DNA of 63,990 nt, counting the filler, from Diploschistes diacapsis (taxonomy: Eukaryota): assembly GCA_023645945.1 (NCBI GenBank). It is 7 parts of 7 records of this genome, joined end to end, with 100 filler letters (N's around TTAATTAATTAA, not from the genome) between each part and the next. Parts side by side here need not be neighbours in the genome. Positions count along the whole stretch, not along the records: positions 18,726 to 27,956 come from JALAIB010001062.1; 6 more parts are not named here. One strand, written 5' to 3'. Numbering within the stretch: the first letter of the stretch is position 1; every line of letters starts with the position of its first letter. Shown here piece by piece: positions 9,266-55,994 of this stretch. Position numbers and translations under genes: made by a program. The notes below the pieces were generated by a model that worked only from the letters and a program-made list of their open reading frames with translations, made no database searches and was not told where the DNA came from.

Positions 9266-9365
9266 NNNNNNNNNNNNNNNNNNNNNNNNNNNNNNNNNNN
9301 NNNNNNNNNTTAATTAATTAANNNNNNNNNNNNNNNNNNNNNNNNNNNNNNNNNNNNNNNNNNNN
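9266..9365. other. Artificial contig linker
   Basis: N-run with central TTAATTAATTAA (stops in all frames), 100 nt. Confidence 0.99.
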
Positions 9366-18625: not shown

Positions 18626-18725
18626 NNNNNNNNNNNNNNNNNNNNNNNNNNNNNNNNNNNNNNNNNNNNTTAATTAATTAANNNNNNNNNNNNNNNNNNN
18701 NNNNNNNNNNNNNNNNNNNNNNNNN
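18626..18725. other. Artificial contig linker
   Basis: Same 100-nt N/TTAATTAATTAA spacer. Confidence 0.99.
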
Positions 18726-18949
18726 GGGTGATGGGAGTGGGGGAGTAGGTGAGATTGAAAATTGAGTTGTGAGCTGTCGGAAAAAGAGAAGGGGGAGGGG
18801 ATGATCTGGGTATTTGCTGCTCACTATATACCGTTTGAGTCAACCGGGCTCTTAGATCTAGGAAATTGTACTGTTGTGACTTGAAGCAGCACCTGGTCTA
18901 GCGACATTTTGATGCACCACTACAGGTATAATCCTCTTCGGAGCCCTTC

Positions 18950-19400
18950 AAATCAATCGTCCTAGCTCCTCAAGGGTGATTGATGCTGATCGTTTGCCGT
19001 TTTGGCGCCCAAGTCTTCTGGGTTCTGAAAGGGGAGTGTTCCCAAGGCGATATCCGCGGCTCGACAGAACCGAATCGGGGCACATGAACTTGGGCTCGAA
19101 GGCTGACGAGGTGGTCCTTCGTAAATGGGAGGAATGTTCTATCACCTGACTTGGCAGCAGCTTCTACGCGTCATTTCGCGCGCGAGAGAGCCGTCGTGCT
19201 CAGTCTTGCCGTTTGCTCCGAGGTCAACCAAGTCCAACGACTTGCCGTCCTTCCCGGCCCGGAGTCCGCGGGAGAAGAGGAAGCCGGCGAGATCGCTTGC
19301 AATACCAATCTTAGACACCCGTTGCTGGAAGCGACTCCGCCCCATTCAATATGTCCAACATGGGACAAGGGCTTGGTCCACTACTTCCATCAGGGTCCAC
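18950..19400 (-). pseudogene. Heme-thiolate peroxidase (unspecific peroxygenase/chloroperoxidase family) relic
   Basis: SPCPMLDILN (PCP at 19370-19362) followed, in another frame, by SLDLVDLGANGKTEHDGSLARE (EHDGSL at 19201-19184); boundaries approximate. Confidence 0.7.
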
Positions 19401-20394
19401 AGGCGTCCTGGCTGCCTCGACCCGCTACAGCCCTGGACTGCGCTCGCGCCACTGCACGCTCGAATATCTCCTCCTTGTTACGTAGTAGATGCAAATAACC
19501 ACGTGTCAAAATCGTCCAGGTCTCGCTCAAAGAGGTCACAGCTATGGTCACCGAATACATAGTGTTCTTGGCGAATATCGCCTCGGACGGCAAGGCCAGC
19601 GTAGAAAAGCACAACGCGACGATGATAACTGCCTGGAGGAATATTCAAACGAACAAAACAACACCAAAGCTCCAAGTAAAGAAGATGCAGAAAAGAGACC
19701 GGCCCAGGAAGCCATGAATTGAAGAGATGAGCCCACTAGTGCGAGGCGATGTTGACGATATTCTACATAGCCCCCATTTCACCATGTCGATAACGCGATT
19801 GCAATTTGCCCTTTGCTGTTACAAATCAAGATACAACCTACGAATGTCGAGATCTGCGTACGCGGATTCACTATGTGGACGGGATTTTACCATCTGAAAA
19901 GTGATGGCTTGGGAGCTGTTTTTAGAGGCTGTATCAATACGAAAGCATCACTCTACAGCTGCAATTTTATCCGTCAACAATGCTAACTAGGATATGCCAG
20001 CTCGTTTCAGCTCGGCTCGATGTTATCCCAATCAACTAGTAGAGGCTGAATCGCGAAGCACGAAGCAGAAAGGTGGCGGTTGCCTTGACGTAAGTTGTTC
20101 GCACTTCTTTTCTGCCGGAGTCTGCGCAAAAGAAGCACTGTTCCATAGCATGAGCCTTTCTCTCTACAAAGCCTCTACAACTTATCTACACCAACTGCAA
20201 TTGCTTATCTGGGCGTATTGTTGACCACTCTACGAGCCCCAAGCAGTAGTAGTGTCAAGTACCAGCTGTATCAAATCCATGCACTGATCTGGCAGCTAGA
20301 CCCAGGGAGCTGCTGACTGGGCTCATACCCGGGTTCGTACATGCAGACACCGTATCGCAAGTCTACAATACAATCACAGCTCTATTCAATCATC

Positions 20395-21119
20395 ATACGA
20401 AGATAGATTTGCAAGACGAGAAAGCCGTCACGCAGCATTGTCTCTTAATCTGCGATGAGGCAAAAATCCTACATGGGGACTTTGCAGACACGACAAGTGT
20501 CAATACTCCGGGCCATGAACCAGTTATGAGCAAGATGAAAGACCTATTCGAGGCGCATATGCTAACGGAGAAAGCCCTAGAATAAGGGAGACATGGATTT
20601 GCCAACACCATAGAAGCCTTGCAAGATCGGCTCAACAGAGTATTATCCTGTAGTGGCGATGAAAAGAGCTACGCTAGGTCCCAACTACTAGTAGATATAG
20701 CTGTGTCAAAACAGTGCTTGTCAGTCTGCGATCAAGCCACCAAGCAGGTAGATGGTCTCAAGATCCACAACATTGGTCCTCTCATTGCGGAAAACGATAC
20801 TGATCAGGTTGTCATTCCTACTCTGGCCGATCTATTCAATGTCGAGAGAGTGGAAGCAAAGAGTGGCTCAGCTCAACTAGTCGGTTCGATGACTGACGAT
20901 TCTTTGAAACAGCTCTCTAGTAAACGTTATAACGGTAGATTTGGTGCTCGTGCTAGTGATATTGAGCACGCCGAAAGAAAATAGCATTTCATCACAGGAG
21001 CATGGCACAAAGGAAGACTATCCAAAGGTGCATTGCCAGATCGTTACCTCCGGAGAAACCAAACTTCCATAGAGAAACCTTCCGCCAACGAAATGAGAAG
21101 GAGGACAACAGAGACTTGA
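20395..21119 (+). pseudogene. C-terminal fragment resembling fungal Helo_like_N (azaphilone cluster protein L-like) family proteins
   Basis: One frame reads DLQDEKAVTQHCLLIC...KQCLSVC...DQVVIPTLADLF...QLVGSMTDDSLKQLS...KPSANEMRRR with in-frame stops TAA 20583 and TAG 20982; N-terminus missing; family call from recalled similarity. Confidence 0.55.
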
Positions 21120-23231
21120 CTAAATAACAAAAATAGCAAGTTTGATTTGATAGCAAGAGACAGTTTACCATATGTTTCACGAGGTTTACACGACGAATGG
21201 CAATTTAAATAAACTAGGCAGGTTTTCAGCCCATAGTTGTAGATAATGTGTTAGAATTTGGGACATTGGTTGTCAGTCAAGGGCGGTTACTAAATATTGA
21301 CGGTCAATGTCTTATGAATGAGAAGGAAATGCTAGTTGCGCATGATGCGTCTCCTAAAGTTGAGCTCTATATGATTTGATTAGCGTGCCATACTTTGCGT
21401 CAGCTAGATAGAATATGATCCTCGACCGTAAGTTAGATCATTGATGGTCATGTGCTTACCTCGATTTTCTTGCTGTATCGAGAGGTTGGGACTTCATTTT
21501 GTGGTGTTTCCGCTTGTATTCGGTATTGGGTGCAGTCAGTTTTGCTACATAATTCTCATCTTCGGCTATGTAACAATCGGCAGCAATCTTTCGATGCCGC
21601 AGCGCATCGGCTTCAGTGGTCAACTTTGATGTCGTCCTATCTTGTATCGGGATGTGTTGTTCACGAATTGCAGCTTTAGAATTTGTGCCGGCAGTGGTAT
21701 CGAGGTAGAGTGGACGCGATACCATATTGTGACCCTGGAAATGATGACCATTGGATGCTATCGTATCGAATACTCGGACCTGTTCTGCGAATAGCTTAAG
21801 TCAACACATCACAATTGCGGAAGAAAAGCAGTCAACCACTGATTGAAACTCAATCCACATACCAAGTTCTGCTCTCCCACGTTGCCGACATAGTTGTTGG
21901 AGCAAACATACTTCCGGCTGCAGAGCATCAACTGCGTCCCTGAGGACCGACACCGTAGACCCGAACACGCAATACCAGAGCTGGGAGACCCTGGTGGAAG
22001 AGCGGGTAATGTGTCTAATAATGGTGAAAGATAAGGTCAGTGTGGCAGCAGTTGAAGACCCTGATGAGAGTATGCTGTTGCTTGACCATAGATTCGAGTA
22101 GAATCAACTCCATTTACGACGGGAGAACGAGTCATTTCTCCACGAAGCAAGCCTGGATGCGATAATTCGATCCGAGCATTTGTGGATCCAGCTATGATAC
22201 TATCTTCATGAAGCTTCTGCTTTGTACCATCGTGATAAGACGTATCCAAGGGAGGAAGGCAGAAATCTTTTGCAGCAAGGCTACATCTCCCCACCGAAGT
22301 ATAGCTATGTGTGGATGGAAATGTGTCCAGTGTTTGAAGATATTCTGGTGTCCAGTAAGGATCGTTCGCGTAGGACAATTTTCTTAGTGGTTTGAATAGA
22401 GGTTCTCGCCAAGCGGAAGACATTGAAGAGCCACTAGAGTATGGTCGGAGACAGTATTGAGAAATAAGAAGGGAAGAAACTGACTTGGAGGTAACAATCC
22501 ATCGAGTGAACAACGGTCGAAGCGCAGTGATCACTGGGGACTGCCAACTGGTATTTGATAACCAATTTGGCGAGAACAAAGAGCACGCAAGGGATAAGTA
22601 TTAGATCTATCAGATCTAGTCGGAAAGTCCGAAGAGCACAGAAGCGAGAGCAGGACGCGAATCATCATTATCAGAGTTCAGAAGACATCGATAGCGGAAT
22701 CGATGCATCACCAAGATCGTGGAGGCAGGTTTCGCTGTTCAGGTCAAACCTGCCATACGACTCAAGGAGGGAAACCAGTGTCTGCAGAGGTATTGTGGGT
22801 TATTGAGTTTTTAATGTGAAGGAAAATACTATGCTCACTCTTGCTCGTACTGCTACGAAATGTAGACTTTCGGTTTCAGCCAACCACTAACGAACACGAT
22901 CAATTGTGTGTGTGTGTGGACGAAGCAGCAGCCATGATACTTGATTCTCATCTTACTTTTCCCATTGTTTCATTCTTTCCCAAATCTTCGAAGATACAGT
23001 GTCTATTGCAGATCGCTGGTTATTAGCACCCAGCATCTCCATGATTTGGCAAGAGACCGGGTCTGCTTGCTCCACCTGTACATGTAGCCCTTTTTTCGCC
23101 TATCACGAACGCCCATCGATAGCGGACCCGATTCAGCCTTGCCTATATCTCCCAAACAGACCTGTGGATAGCCAAGGGATACCTAAAGATCGGGAGCGCT
23201 TAACCAGCTTATCCAGAGAACCACGACCGGC

Positions 23232-26050
23232 ATGATCGAGCATTCAGCCAAGAGGCCGGAAGACCGGCGTGATTTTCAGATTGGAATCATCTGTGCCCTG
23301 ACTCTGGAAGCAGAGAAGGTTGAAATAGTTTTTGATAAAAGATGGAAGAAGAAAGAGGACGGCAGCGGTTACGGAAGATCAGTCAATGATCCCAACACCT
23401 ACACGACCGGTGTCATTGCCGGTCACAACGTTGTTCTTGCCTATTGCCCTGGTATCGGTAGCAATAGCGCAGGTCAAGTAGCGACATGGCTGATGGCTAG
23501 TTTCACTGGTGTCAAGATCATTTTCGTTGTGGGAGTCTGTGGAGCAGTACCATCCTACAAGTTCCGAGAGAAGATACAAAAGGTTGTGCTTGGAGATTGT
23601 CTCATAAGCACAGCGGTTATACAATTTGATCACGGTAGAGAAGGTCCTTGCGGATTTGCAAAAAAGGATGGCGTGGATGGGCTCGGAAGGGCTAGCATCC
23701 AGATCAGAGCATTGATGGCAAAGCTGCAGACATCAACGAATAGGCAGGAGTTGACAGGCGAGCTTTTGAAAAACCTCAAAGGCTTGCAAGAGGCAGACCA
23801 AGAGGCATTCAGTATCCTGGCAAGGATGAGGATCACTTGTACAAATCTTCCTATATACATACTCATCATGCCACAGTGTTCGAAGAACCAAAGTAACCAA
23901 AATGTATGCTCGGAGTCGCATCACGCTCAAGTCTTGTGCTGTGCTCAAGTTGCTTTTCGTCGCAGCCAATCTCCTTGCAACTCTTCTCACAAATTCCAAG
24001 CACTGGATTGCACTGCTTGCAAACCTCAACTGTAATCAAGTCCGGCCAGAAACGTGACGAGCTTGCAAAGATTGACAAGATTATCGCTCTTGAGATGGAA
24101 GGCGCAGGAGTATGGGATGTTTGTCCGACGATCGTTGTCAAAGCTGCTTGCGATTATGCCGATAGTCACAAGAACAAGAAATGGAGGTCATATGCAGCTG
24201 CTGTTGCTGCAGCAGGACTCAAAGCGCTTCTAGAGACGTGGGAGGTCACGGATGCGCTACTAGGAGCAGGTAAGCTCTTCTGAAGCTAATCGCTCTCGAA
24301 CGAGTCGTAGATTTGGCTAACCACTGACAGTCCCTTTGCCAGGCATTTGCCCATAATGTTGACGATACTGCTGCTCCATCTGTCAAGAGCAGGTCAATCT
24401 ACATGATCCCTTATCTTCAGAATAAGAGCTTCATTGGAAGGCAGAAGAAGTTACAAGAGCTAGAGGATCGATTGCTGGTGAATCAAGAAACTCGCCAGCT
24501 CGCAATATATGGCCTAGGAGGCGTTGGAATGATACAGCTCGCACTTGCGTTCTGGAATATCGTTCCAACAAAATATCCTGACTACTCGATATTCTGGGTG
24601 TCGACGTTGAATAATGCTCAATTCAAACAAGACTACACCCAGATAGCAAAGAAATGTTTCATCGCTACTGAATCTAGCGAGGCTGAGTTGGTTTCAATCG
24701 TGCGAGAATACCTAAGGAGTGAGGAAGCGGGGAAGTGGCTTCTCATTGTGGACAACGCAGACGAAAAGCTAGATCTCCTTGATCCTTCTTCTGGCGTTCT
24801 CAACTACTTGCCCTCGAACGAGACTGGACTTCTGTTATTCACTACTAGATACAAAGAGATAGCTGTCAATGCGGCTGAAAAAAACATTACGGTTTTTGGA
24901 AGAGATGGAGCCGACTGAAGCAAAACATTTCCTTCAGAAAGCACTGGGGAACTCCGTCTTGGTACGAGATGAAGCGACTGTCGAGGAACTACTGGCAGAG
25001 CTGACATACATACCTCTGGCTACTATACAGGCGGCCTCGTACGTAGTCAAGAAGTCTATCACGATTTCCAGATACCTAGCTCTGATGAAGAAGACCGAGA
25101 AAGAGATGATCAAGTTACTAAGCCAGGACTTTCGCGATACAACCCGAGAAAAGGAGGCTAAGAACGCCGTTGCTGTAACCTGGCTAGTATCATTCGAGCA
25201 GATCAGGAGAGATAAACCAGAGGCTGCAAATATTCTGCTCTTCCTTGCTCTGATAGAACACAAGGCTATCCCATTGTCTGCTCTACCATCAGCAAGAGGC
25301 GATTGAGGCAAAGACGAAGACAATGATTTGACAGATGCTATAGGTACATTAGTTGGACACTCGTTCCTGACAAAGCAAGGAGATGGCGGAACCTATGATG
25401 CATAGACTGGTACAACGTGCAGTCAAGTTCTGGATGCAGAAGGCCGGGATTCTCGATGAATGTATGGAATTTACAGTGTCACATATTGCAAAAGTCTTTC
25501 CTGAGGCAAAGTAGGAGAACAGGAATCTATGGCGAAAATATATACCACATTCTATTCGAGATTTGGAGAACACGAAGGCGACACCTTCGCAGGACAGAGC
25601 CACTCTGTGTATCAAGCTTGGCCAGAGTCTTGAAATAGATGGCAGGACCCCCGAAGCTGTTACATGGATATTCGAATGTGTTTCGTGGAGAACTCAGCAA
25701 CTACCAGAAGATCATCCATCTCGACTAGCATCTCAGCATGAACTTGCCTTGACATACCTGTGGAATGGACAGGTGATGGAGGCAGTCCAGATGCTGGAGA
25801 GAGTGGTTGCAATCCAAGCAAGAGTGCTTGCAGAAGATCATCTATCTCGACTGGCATCGCAACATCATCTCGCCTTGTACTACAAGTTGCTAGGCAGGCC
25901 TGATGAAGCGATCTCGTTGATGCAGCATGTCGTTATTATGCGAAAAACTCTTTAGCAGATTAAAATCCTCATCGGCTCCTGTCTGAAACCAAATTATTTC
26001 GTATGCTCGATCAAGGGGAAACTGACGTAGGGTTAGGAGAAGAATGGTAG
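23232..26050 (+). pseudogene. Fungal NLR pseudogene: PNP_UDP effector, NB-ARC, TPR repeats; intron ~24270-24342
   Basis: [68 protein letters not shown]-loop, WLLIVDNAD, LLFTTR, IPLATIQAASY; EDHPSRLASQHELA repeats; several frameshifts, stops and an internal inversion. Confidence 0.92.
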
Positions 26051-27172
26051 CTGCAAGCCTACTTGATGGGCGGTGCTCTACGCCAAAGTCTTGACTGGAA
26101 GATCTGATTTTGTGACCACCCTATCTGAATGACTATTGCATGCCAGAATTTGATGTTCGTTGGCTAAATACTAGATTTAGGCTTCAGAGAACTATGTACG
26201 GCTTTAGTGAGGCCTGCTCCCCACTCTTGAGATGTCTGTTGCCCTGGAATAGTAAGATGACTCTAAATGATAAGTGGAAGAGAGAGAGAAGAGAGAAGAG
26301 AAAAAGGACAAGTTGTATGAGAAAGGCTCATTATTTATTGATGATCATTTCGAAATGGCAATAACACACAAAAAGAAGGAATCAAGAATGATGAGGTCAG
26401 GATGGAATGTCAACCACGTTTGCCATAAGTGATCAACATGGACATTGTAATGATGGAATTCGCAATGAGAACGTGATCGAAGCCATTCCTCGCCCATGGA
26501 TCAATAACTGACCAACCGTACGGACAAAGCAGCACTTACTGTCAGAGTAAAGCATTGCATAGTCTTGCGGAATGGTTGTTGCATCGATTGCCAGAAGAAC
26601 CTTGATTGAGGCATTAAGCAGCGCAATGCATGCCTCAAGTCTTGTTTTGTTGACTGGTTAATAATGGGCGATATGAGAGTGAGGAGCGTGTAAGAAACAT
26701 AATTCAGATGAATACGAGGTTGTGGTCTTTCGTGCAATATTAAAAGTAGTGAATATAAGAATTACTGTTGCTCGCGCTTGATGATGCTGTATTTCTGCCT
26801 GCGCTGGTGCTTGACTTGCCCGTTGCAGCTCACCTTATCTAGTGCCGTTGCCTATGACGATCTTGAGCTTTCTAGAACCGAGATGTAGCCCAAGCTCGAA
26901 ATCCGTCGTCGATATTTGCCAGACACACGTTCTCGAAAAGCTTCTTGCAGTAGAGCGGGACCACGCATGAAGATGACGATGATATGCTGCTTTCTTACAG
27001 GCCCGTCTTGCCACCGTACCTGTAAACAGTCCTGTCAACACTTGGTGCATAGGGTATAGCGGCCGATGGGCATGCCTTCGTGGGTAGATTACGAATGTGA
27101 TTGCAGTCACTACTCCATCAGCCGTTGAGGGTTGTGAGACCATAGTAGGTTATTACAGTGATCTTGGAAGTG

Positions 27173-27771
27173 TCATTGCTGTTTCCGACTCACGAAGACG
27201 CTCCTCAGGCTATACGCTGCAAGAGACTGCTCCTCCAGGAAACGGCTCTCTGGACAAGCAAACAATGTTTTGCCAACGTTACGCTTCCTCTTTCGATTTA
27301 GCCTGATCTCTCCCAAGACTTTCCTTGTGCTGATCTCACTACGCTCAGAGTCAATAATCATTGCCTTTCCAGTGGACCGATCAACCACGATGTTTCGAGC
27401 TTCGGCATCACGATGCAACACTCCTTTATCATGTATAGCTTTCAGAGCCTGCGCCGCCTGAGGTTGGACTGACAGCAAGGATTGGTCGTGGTGGAGAGAG
27501 TCGTTCATTACTTTCAGAAGAGGTATCCCCGCCCAGCTTAATAGGAGAATGTGTTTAAGGTCTACGCGCCATCGTAGAAAAACGGGAGCTCGAGAGTCAT
27601 CAATCCACAGCAAACAGGAATGTACCTTCCCTGCAAAGCTTTCAGATGCCTGTAGATCCGAAACTCATTTTCTAGATGATGCAAATCATGTTGATGGCAG
27701 CCTTTGGCAACGGAGGCATAGCCATGGGAAGTCAGTATTATCTTAAGTAGAGGTCCAGGAGAGCTGTGCAT
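27173..27771 (-). pseudogene. 5'-truncated, frameshifted fungal protein-kinase-like gene
   Basis: GPLLKIILTSHGYASVAKG, LENEFRIYRHLKALQGRYIPVCCG, then shifted frame LLSWAG, ALKAIHDKGVLHRDAEARNIVVD, IIDSERS; upstream replaced by AT-rich DNA. Confidence 0.75.
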
Positions 27772-27779
27772 ATATCGAG

Positions 27780-27956
27780 GATAATAACCGGTATTAATAT
27801 TTCTGTCATTCGCAAATTAATCATGAACCTTTTGGAAAAAACTGTATAAAAAATATATTATTAACTATATCGTTTAGCATTAAAATAATACGAATCTGTC
27901 TATGCGCCATTATAAAATCCTATAAATATTTATATAACGTGTTTGACGGGGATTCC
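27780..27956. repeat. AT-rich, RIP-like repeat relic at contig end
   Basis: Abrupt AT enrichment with many TpA dinucleotides. Confidence 0.6.
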
Positions 27957-28056
27957 NNNNNNNNNNNNNNNNNNNNNNNNNNNNNNNNNNNNNNNNNNNN
28001 TTAATTAATTAANNNNNNNNNNNNNNNNNNNNNNNNNNNNNNNNNNNNNNNNNNNN
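27957..28056. other. Artificial contig linker
   Basis: Same 100-nt spacer. Confidence 0.99.
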
Positions 28057-29193
28057 CTATAAAAACAAGATAAGAAATTATCGTAGATTTATTTAATCTA
28101 AAAAGATAAAAGTCTTATTTCTTAAGAATTAATTTAACTAAGCCGGCGATATCGCGGCTAGTTTTAATAATTCTAAACCGAATTCCGAAGACACGTCTTC
28201 TTACGCGTTCGCGTATACCTCAGACGATTCTAAATCTAATTTTTTCGTTAAATACTTCGCTTACGCGTCCGCACGACCTTTTATTAATTTAAGAACCTTT
28301 CGATTACGGCGAATGCGACGTTTATATTAAAGACGACGATCTTTAACTTTACGAAATTATTTTTTCAACTTCTTCTCTTACTTATTATCCTCGTTAACAA
28401 GCTTTTTATCCTTCTCGATCTCGTCTTTCTTTAAAGGGATGATCCGTTCAATTACCTTTTATATAATAGAAACACAATCTTTCCTATTAAACTTAATATA
28501 GCGAGTATATTTCACCGAAATAAAAGACATTCTAATATAATCGTAAAAAAATAAATAATGATTATAAAATAATATATTTAAAAAACCCCGAAGACGAATA
28601 ATAAAGCTTAAACGTTTCTTTTATATCGAAGATAAAGAAGACATCGCTATCCTACGACTTAAGATTCTTTTTTATTTAATATTTATATTAATTTTTCGAT
28701 GTTTATCGGGCCGATAAAGCTAAAAAAAAAAGATAATATTACGATCCAAAATATTAGGCGGTAATACTTGGCACGTAATAGCTAATCGGGTACTTCTTAA
28801 TCATTTCTTATATATAATCTAATTAGGATAATAGAGATTACGTGACGAGTAAAAGTTTTAAAAGACCATTTTACTTAGTTATAAATAGAAAGTAAGAACG
28901 GTAATTCTATTTATTTATTTATTTATTTTATTAAAGAAGCTGTTAATTATATAAAAACGTCGTTATAATCTTTATAAGTTTAGGACGTGTTTATTTTTAT
29001 AAATATTTTTAGTTATTACTCGGGATTAATTTATATTCGTTATTTTTATTTTTAGAAAGCCTTTTTTTTAAAGATAGTTTAAGATTTATAACTGCTTTAC
29101 CTTCTTCTCCTGTTTGCACTCCTTTTCTAACAGAGACCAAACCCACCTTGATCAATACCTCGTGTCTACCTTATAGAGATAGAGATCATAACA
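28057..29193. mobile_element. Heavily RIP-mutated transposon relic, probably the 3' part of an LTR retrotransposon
   Basis: Very AT-rich, CpA/TpG depleted with CpG retained; stop-ridden minus-strand ORF from ATG 28644; ends ...CATAACA at 29193 like an LTR terminus. Confidence 0.6.
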
Positions 29194-37285: not shown

Positions 37286-37385
37286 NNNNNNNNNNNNNNN
37301 NNNNNNNNNNNNNNNNNNNNNNNNNNNNNTTAATTAATTAANNNNNNNNNNNNNNNNNNNNNNNNNNNNNNNNNNNNNNNNNNNN
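37286..37385. other. Artificial contig linker
   Basis: Same 100-nt spacer. Confidence 0.99.
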
Positions 37386-46612: not shown

Positions 46613-46712
46613 NNNNNNNNNNNNNNNNNNNNNNNNNNNNNNNNNNNNNNNNNNNNTTAATTAATTAANNNNNNNNNNNNNNNNNNNNNNNNNNNNNNNN
46701 NNNNNNNNNNNN
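46613..46712. other. Artificial contig linker
   Basis: Same 100-nt spacer. Confidence 0.99.
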
Positions 46713-55894: not shown

Positions 55895-55994
55895 NNNNNN
55901 NNNNNNNNNNNNNNNNNNNNNNNNNNNNNNNNNNNNNNTTAATTAATTAANNNNNNNNNNNNNNNNNNNNNNNNNNNNNNNNNNNNNNNNNNNN
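55895..55994. other. Artificial contig linker
   Basis: Same 100-nt spacer. Confidence 0.99.

What the first reader, a model, noticed from the sequence alone, without database searches (positions are those of the whole stretch)
23873..24033. Precise 161-bp inversion inside the NLR effector domain, bounded by ACAGT/ACTGT inverted repeats
The plus strand reads ...YPGKDEDHLYKSSYIHTHHA, then unrelated sequence, then [13 protein letters not shown]. The missing PNP_UDP segment is on the minus strand: [58 protein letters not shown] (23873-23877) and ACTGT (24029-24033) form an inverted repeat at the breakpoints. Flipping the segment gives a seamless, stop-free ...HHATVEVC...GSSNTVIKSG... with no base gained or lost, and both repeats are regenerated. 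The most parsimonious reading is a microhomology-mediated template-switch inversion that disabled, or followed the disabling of, an immune receptor. A reversible on/off switch of an NLR effector is a speculative alternative, weakened by the other lesions in this copy.
Basis: partly seen in the sequence, partly recalled or inferred. Interest (0 to 1): 0.8.

Follow-up and report, generated by a model that had tools for sequence, protein, structure and literature searches.

The report
Small inversion in dead immune gene
About 150 bases in the middle of a fungal immune-receptor gene really do lie backwards, but the gene is broken in several other places too, so this looks like a one-off DNA copying or repair accident in a dead gene and not an on/off switch.

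Summary
The inversion is real. A 151-base core (23878-24028) between ACAGT and ACTGT encodes, on the minus strand, the missing piece of the PNP_UDP domain of a PNP_UDP/NB-ARC/TPR fungal NLR: 67% identity to the closest homologue; profile score 145 to 222 bits on flipping; the repeat-bounded flip is the best of 2750 tried (one other ties). A 5-base inverted repeat bounds 0.5-0.6% of random flips, so microhomology was probably involved; whether template switch or break repair cannot be told. The gene has at least five other breaks plus a destroyed Walker A. One frameshift lies 75 bases upstream, so the product is 267 residues and out of frame in either orientation: flipping back restores nothing. 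One public contig (depth 129, probably the source run) shows one orientation only; 0 of 21 testable other NLR-like loci in the genome show an inversion. A switch is unlikely (about 2%). A possible second template-switch scar lies at the Walker A motif (suggestive only). The scan noted similar intragenic micro-inversions in other genomes. Verdict: new member of a known kind, low interest.

The parts
23232..25955 (+). PNP_UDP / NB-ARC / TPR NLR pseudogene (ATG to last in-frame stop)
   Evidence: Pfam PF01048 E 1e-10, PF00931 E 7e-6, PF13424 E 1e-16 on the pieces; collinear with P0001 and P0024
23232..23795 (+). N-terminal part of the PNP_UDP domain, intact frame
   Evidence: 131 of 191 residues identical to P0001 over 23232-23805
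23796..23799 (+). -1 frameshift upstream of the inversion (position approximate)
   Evidence: frameshift-aware alignment to P0001
23873..23877 (+). left 5-base arm ACAGT
23878..24028 (-). inverted core, 151 bases: Cys-rich insert and the HFGxFGS stretch of the PNP domain
   Evidence: tblastn minus-strand piece; breakpoint scan; invariant H254, G256 and near-invariant C229, C234, R242, P251, S260 of alignment A1 fall here; predicted strands 253-255 and 258-260 in P0002
23894..23896 (+). premature TAA that the inversion puts in the PNP frame
24029..24033 (+). right 5-base arm ACTGT (codons of the conserved T-V in GSSNTV)
24034..24269 (+). C-terminal part of the PNP domain ([14 protein letters not shown] motifs)
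   Evidence: 56 of 74 residues identical to P0001 over 24032-24253
24270..24342 (+). probable intron; the best donor and acceptors are out of phase by one base, so possibly one more frameshift nearby
   Evidence: phase table; inference
24385..25396 (+). NB-ARC domain and following helical region
24529..24534 (+). Walker A GKT changed to GMI
   Evidence: 29 of 29 pattern matches in homologous proteins have K-T or K-S
24523..24569 (.). 11-of-12 quasi-palindrome (arms 24523-24534, 24558-24569) over the Walker A changes; possible second template-switch scar
   Evidence: suggestive only
24892..24895 (+). +1 frameshift in a T run
25304..25306 (+). in-frame TGA
25397..25400 (+). frameshift (position approximate)
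25512..25514 (+). in-frame TAG where P0001 has Trp
25725..25931 (+). TPR repeats (short remaining sensor region)
   Evidence: PF13424 residues 71-139 of window 25515-25952

Best explanation
A one-off, fixed micro-inversion in a decayed fungal NLR gene. Shown: the segment is reversed, bounded by a 5-base inverted repeat, removes conserved core residues of the PNP domain and creates a stop. Inferred: a nascent or resected 3' end paired through the 5-base microhomology with the opposite arm, copied the 151 bases from the other strand and returned at the second arm (replication template switch, or microhomology-mediated break-induced replication). This keeps length and both arms. The allele persisted because the gene was, or thereby became, non-functional. 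It is one of at least six null lesions, so without other information it is more likely a later than the first hit (about 1 in 6-7 for first).
For: (inversion and breakpoints). (0.5-0.6% chance of such a repeat). (other lesions; flip does not restore the frame). (one 7616-base contig, depth 128.6, no joints). (single copy). (64 of 198 queries hit both strands here; 0 convincing cases in 21 other contigs with hits). PMC8755829: all 59 definite human-chimpanzee micro-inversions have flanking inverted repeats, 28 of them 4-7 bases, mostly clean. PMC13449251: NLR pseudogenes with stops and frameshifts are common in Podospora.
Against: The core is longer than in the surveys read: 17-33 bases (PMC8755829), 2-5 bases with arms over 9 (PMC8604942), templated stretch at most 128 (PMC7954356). 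PMC8755829 itself doubts double template switches at 3-4 base arms. The arms do not pair in the predicted fold of the region (z +1.45). The left joint lies in a variable loop and is the lowest-scoring window of the flipped piece, so the left arm may have been created or perfected by the event. No close orthologue with DNA was found, so order and ancestry are untested.
Confidence: 0.8

Rival explanations
1. Two breaks were re-joined with the fragment reversed (end joining); the 5-base repeat is chance or only helped ligation.
For: A 151-base fragment is long enough that the objection raised to this model for 20-base events in PMC8755829 is weaker; breakpoints 1-2 bases outside the repeat score as well or nearly so.
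Against: Such a repeat occurs at 0.5-0.6% of random flips; both joints look clean, with the spacing of 6 of the 7 closest homologues.
Confidence: 0.11
2. A reversible on/off switch of the NLR effector domain, or a site repeatedly inverted by a recombinase or by a transposase acting on cryptic ends.
For: Both arms are regenerated by flipping. The inversion is by itself a null, and switching off a cell-death domain could be favoured. The left edge reads CACAGTG, which resembles the RAG heptamer and Tc1/Transib ends (resemblance recalled from memory, from no call). Reversible spacer flips are reported in yeast genes (PMC8604942).
Against: Flipping gives the same dead 267-residue product and NB-ARC/TPR are also broken. 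344 such repeat pairs lie in the gene. The known fungal flip-flop read here uses a 250-base repeat (PMC3574095); the yeast flips have 10-11 base arms and 2-3 base spacers. One contig, one orientation. No PF00589 match in the genome, with controls ringing in 14 of 14 (genome may be incomplete). The two motifs sit in codons of conserved protein sequence.
Confidence: 0.04
3. Assembly or library artefact (misassembly, amplification chimera).
For: The only run that holds the DNA may be the source of the assembly, so it is not independent; no raw reads were seen.
Against: A separately built contig crosses both joints with 0 differences at mean depth 128.6; a 5-base repeat is far below assembly word length (established knowledge); a chimera would be a minority form.
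Confidence: 0.03

Closest known systems
Pure micro-inversions flanked by short inverted repeats (human-chimpanzee set, PMC8755829; parts 1-3 of 5 of the text read)
   Same: Clean reversal, arms directly at the edges, arm length in their commonest 4-7 base class.
   Different: Core of 151 bases against 17-33; lies in coding sequence of a fungal gene; inferred from protein homology, not from a DNA alignment with an uninverted relative.
Inverted-repeat spacer inversion and arm homogenisation by template switching in Saccharomyces coding DNA (PMC8604942; part 1 of 7 and passages read); four-point model (PMC7954356; passages read)
   Same: Spacer reversed between inverted arms in a fungal gene; the Walker A quasi-palindrome would fit arm homogenisation.
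   Different: Yeast cases have arms over 9 bases and 2-5 base inversions that keep the protein; here arms are 5 bases and the gene is destroyed.
Fungal NLRs with N-terminal PNP_UDP, NB-ARC and TPR (PMC4986451, passages); immune ATP nucleosidase PNP domains, Cap17-like (bioRxiv 10.1101/2023.01.24.525353, passages)
   Same: Domain order; MTA/SAH nucleosidase-like fold of an intact homologue.
   Different: This copy is a pseudogene; membership of the Cap17-like clade and ATP cleavage were not tested.
Programmed fungal inversions: Sclerotinia sclerotiorum MAT 3.6-kb inversion (PMC3574095, passages); Hansenula polymorpha mating-type inversion (PMC4238957, search listing only)
   Same: An inversion that truncates a gene in a fungus.
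   Different: The Sclerotinia case uses identical 250-base repeats and both orientations occur 1:1; here 5-base arms, one orientation seen, gene dead either way.

Membership tests
Micro-inversion flanked by short inverted repeats | Segment is the reverse complement of what homologues have, flanks collinear | tested here: met
   (protein level)
Micro-inversion flanked by short inverted repeats | Inverted repeat at the edges beyond chance | tested here: met
   5 bases; 0.5-0.6% of random flips
Micro-inversion flanked by short inverted repeats | Clean joints, no gain or loss | tested here: inconclusive
   right joint exact; left spacing equals 6 of 7 closest homologues but lies in a variable loop
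Micro-inversion flanked by short inverted repeats | Arms present before the event | not testable with these tools
   no close uninverted orthologue with DNA found
Programmed / reversible DNA inversion switch | Both orientations coexist | tested here: inconclusive
   one contig, one orientation, no joints; contigs drop rare variants
Programmed / reversible DNA inversion switch | One orientation gives a functional product | tested here: not met
   267-residue out-of-frame product in both orientations; further lesions downstream
Programmed / reversible DNA inversion switch | Long or distinctive inverted repeats | tested here: not met
   5 bases, no extension, 344 similar pairs in the gene
Programmed / reversible DNA inversion switch | A cognate recombinase | tested here: inconclusive
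   PF00589 none, controls rang; PF12940 none, but no control rang; serine recombinases and DDE transposases not searched; genome fragmented
Fungal NLR (PNP_UDP / NB-ARC / TPR) | Effector, NOD and repeat domains in order | tested here: met
Fungal NLR (PNP_UDP / NB-ARC / TPR) | Intact reading frame and Walker A lysine | tested here: not met
   a pseudogene of the family
Cap17-like immune ATP nucleosidase | Falls in the defensive PNP clade; cleaves ATP | not tested
   only fold similarity to MTA/SAH nucleosidases shown for homologue P0002
RIP-inactivated gene | High TpA/ApT, low (CpA+TpG)/(ApC+GpT), low GC | tested here: not met
   0.65, 1.48, GC 0.47, like intact genes (0.58-0.60, 1.34-1.35) and unlike a RIP-like stretch (1.2, 0.3)

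The most novel reading that the evidence does not exclude
Fungal NLR cell-death domains are shut off by templated events at short inverted repeats more often than other genes, as a fast and in principle reversible escape from autoimmunity: this inversion was the first hit in an otherwise intact gene, and the Walker A quasi-palindrome records a second templated hit on the other essential motif. In its strongest form the YACAGT-like ends are recognised by a recombinase or transposase and both orientations exist in the species.
Probability: 0.04. Interest if true: 0.8.

Novelty: new member of a known kind. Interest (0 to 1): 0.22.

Why it matters
As it stands it is a clean example of a rare mutation type at the long end of the published size range with very short arms, and a usable lineage marker. 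It also shows how such a lesion is hidden: the public gene model P0206 bridges it with predicted introns and reads part of the antisense strand as protein, so NLR counts from annotations can include dead genes. If both orientations were found in an otherwise intact allele it would be a DNA-inversion switch on a fungal immune receptor, for which my searches found no report; the evidence here does not point that way.

Tried and rejected
Sequencing runs: 1 holder, possibly the source; no RNA holder listed; two other runs of the study laid nothing; none of these blanks is used as evidence. No second or uninverted copy in the own genome. Metagenome scan with P0001: 2 loci at 31-33% identity, no help for ancestry. 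Three protein searches found no relative closer than 69% apart from the locus's own products. 27 of 198 homologues end early in the PNP profile, at scattered places, with no cluster at this breakpoint. One opposite-strand piece at contig C3816 (1 of 198 queries, E 0.006) rejected as chance; 2 of the 23 other contigs gave no hit and could not be tested; 8 lower-ranked places were not fetched. Scan of all 4-60 base flips in five pieces of the gene: best gain 8.3 profile units, mainly by removing stops; no second inversion. Pfam cannot see the 53-residue piece alone, so a profile from homologues was used. RIP rejected. Hairpin formation by the inversion arms not supported. RAG1 search uninformative. 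Single-sequence PDB search empty. Neighbourhood arguments rejected: the window is a concatenation of about 9.2-kb contigs joined by an N-TTAATTAATTAA-N linker, so only 18726-27956 is contiguous. Supplements were not read; those of PMC13449251 (per-gene NLR status) could list inversions that the main text does not mention.

Full report
Setting. The window is not one chromosome stretch: N runs with a TTAATTAATTAA linker occur about every 9.3 kb, and the finding lies on contig C72, window 18726-27956. The DNA is fungal (pentafunctional AROM and other eukaryotic genes). The only public run that holds it is labelled lichen metagenome and may be its source. A public protein, P0206, labelled Diploschistes diacapsis (Lecanoromycetes), clusters with the window's own product and maps letter for letter onto the window in four pieces.

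Observation. Pfam gives PNP_UDP_1, NB-ARC and TPR on successive plus-strand pieces, and nothing on the 53-residue minus-strand piece alone. With 54 homologues, 40 give a minus-strand piece inside the segment; P0001 matches plus strand up to the segment, minus strand over residues 217-268 (67%, E 1e-21) and plus strand again after it. Identity to P0001 is 131/191 before, 33/50 inside and 56/74 after the segment. A profile from 53 of the 54 domains scores the native frame 145.0 bits and the repeat-bounded flip 222.0, the best of 2750 breakpoint pairs; 23872/24034 ties because both swapped bases are third codon positions. The inner edge is held by the Asn codon (2.7 bits lost one base further in). 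So the core is 151 bases, and 161 with the arms. Spacing at the left joint equals that of 6 of the 7 closest homologues, but only 13 of all 54.

Is the repeat more than chance? A repeat of at least 5 bases bounds 0.57% of random 100-250 base flips in the gene. That favours a microhomology-using process by a factor of tens (inference). It is not a distinctive site: it does not extend, 344 such pairs exist in the gene, and the arms do not pair in the predicted single-strand fold. Whether the left arm pre-existed cannot be told: it lies in a variable loop and is the weakest window of the flipped piece.

Is it real DNA? One separately built contig of 7616 bases, mean depth 128.6, crosses the whole stretch with no difference, joint or loose end. 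This argues against misassembly and against a common second orientation, but it is probably the same library and contigs drop rare forms. The locus is single copy.

Effect. The segment holds the Cys-rich insert and the HFGxFGS stretch, with two invariant and several near-invariant columns of a 35-sequence alignment. This stretch aligns to the H-x-G-x-I-A-T-G-D stretch of MTA/SAH nucleosidases, is predicted as strands in an intact homologue (pLDDT 85.6), and that model's best structural matches are MTA/SAH nucleosidases. The inversion also puts a TAA in frame at 23894. It is a null allele by itself. That fungal NLR PNP domains can be toxic ATP nucleosidases is from bioRxiv 10.1101/2023.01.24.525353 (passages); it was not tested for this family.

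The rest of the gene is dead. Frameshift-aware alignment shows -1 at about 23796, +1 at about 24892, TGA at 25304, a frameshift at about 25397 and TAG at 25512. Walker A reads GMI where 29 of 29 pattern matches in homologues have GKT or GKS. The likely intron is one base out of phase. From the ATG the product is 267 residues in both orientations. Dinucleotide indices are those of intact genes, not of RIP. Stops and frameshifts are common in Podospora NLR genes, and the main text of that paper has no occurrence of 'inversion' (PMC13449251, passages). Order of events is unknown; with six or seven null lesions the inversion is first with about 15% prior chance.

Is it a pattern? Thirty loci on 23 other contigs with PNP or NB-ARC matches were searched with 198 proteins. 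Here 64 of 198 queries hit both strands; of the 21 other contigs with hits, 20 had none and one had a single weak piece. Truncated homologues do not cluster at this site (27 of 198 short). No closer relative than 69% was found. No tyrosine recombinase was found in the genome; the RAG1 search was uninformative.

A possible second templated scar. Both Walker A changes lie in the left arm of an 11-of-12 inverted repeat with a 23-base spacer. Putting K and T codons back lowers the repeat score from 9 to 6; 15 of 1362 sampled sites reach 9, and 9 of those belong to this repeat. The right arm is the worst-scoring 6-residue window of that exon, and the window is the strongest hairpin of 121 in the gene (z -4.8). 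Against it: one of the two changes does not match the template without a further mutation; it was noticed after the fact among about six lesions; a 9-base perfect repeat lies 70 bases on in ordinary-looking sequence; and 3 other windows reach z -3 or lower, those inspected lying over conserved or unremarkable residues. I treat it as suggestive.

Mechanism and comparison. Shown: reversal, arms, null effect, other lesions. Inferred: double template switch or microhomology-mediated break-induced replication at the arms. In PMC8755829 (parts 1-3 of 5 read) all 59 definite micro-inversions have flanking repeats, 28 of 4-7 bases, and the authors prefer break repair for short arms. Yeast coding examples have longer arms and 2-5 base spacers and can revert (PMC8604942). 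The longest templated stretch in the ape survey is 128 bases (PMC7954356). This case is longer than those, which leaves end joining open. The programmed Sclerotinia inversion uses 250-base repeats (PMC3574095). The domain classes are standard for fungal NLRs (PMC4986451). Six literature searches listed no micro-inversion or inversion switch in a fungal NLR; only listings were seen for most hits and the library is partial. Earlier notes of this scan describe similar intragenic micro-inversions in other fungal and bacterial genomes (unchecked); none concerns this genome or protein.

Verdict. Observation confirmed; microhomology-linked one-off inversion in an NLR pseudogene 0.8; end joining with a chance repeat 0.11; switch or recombinase 0.04; artefact 0.03. 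New member of a known kind; interest 0.22.

Noticed in passing
window 24523-24569: 11-of-12 quasi-palindrome covering both Walker A substitutions; the right arm is also the most aberrant part of the exon. Possible template-switch mutation cluster.
   Followed up: partly
window 9266-9365, 18626-18725, 27957-28056, 37286-37385, 46613-46712, 55895-55994: Artificial linkers (44 N, TTAATTAATTAA, 44 N) join separate contigs; genes across them are not neighbours.
   Followed up: yes
window 23232-25303: Public gene model P0206 (580 aa) skips the lesions with three predicted introns, one inside the inversion, and translates out-of-frame and antisense sequence; a pseudogene annotated as a protein.
   Followed up: yes
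window 27173-27816, minus strand: Kinase-like fragments in two frames (PF00069 E 9e-6, below cut-off), running into an AT-rich contig end; looks like another broken or spliced gene next to the NLR.
   Followed up: partly
window 28057-29100: AT-rich stretch with RIP-like indices (TpA/ApT 1.2, GC 0.27) at the start of the next contig.
   Followed up: partly
window 23872-23878: The left edge reads CACAGTG, like the RAG heptamer and transposon ends (recalled, from no call); it needs only two more matching bases given the arm and lies in conserved codons, so probably chance.
   Followed up: partly
L029 (C3837), L016 (C2369), L034 (C4053), L004/L006 (C1053): Other PNP or NB-ARC loci of the genome with several in-frame stops or split frames (introns not separated): the NLR repertoire seems to hold more pseudogenes.
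   Followed up: no
window 23232-25955: 4 of 121 sliding windows fold at z -3 or lower, against 0 of 120 in part of AROM and 1 of 120 in an NLR paralogue; small numbers, unexplained.
   Followed up: partly
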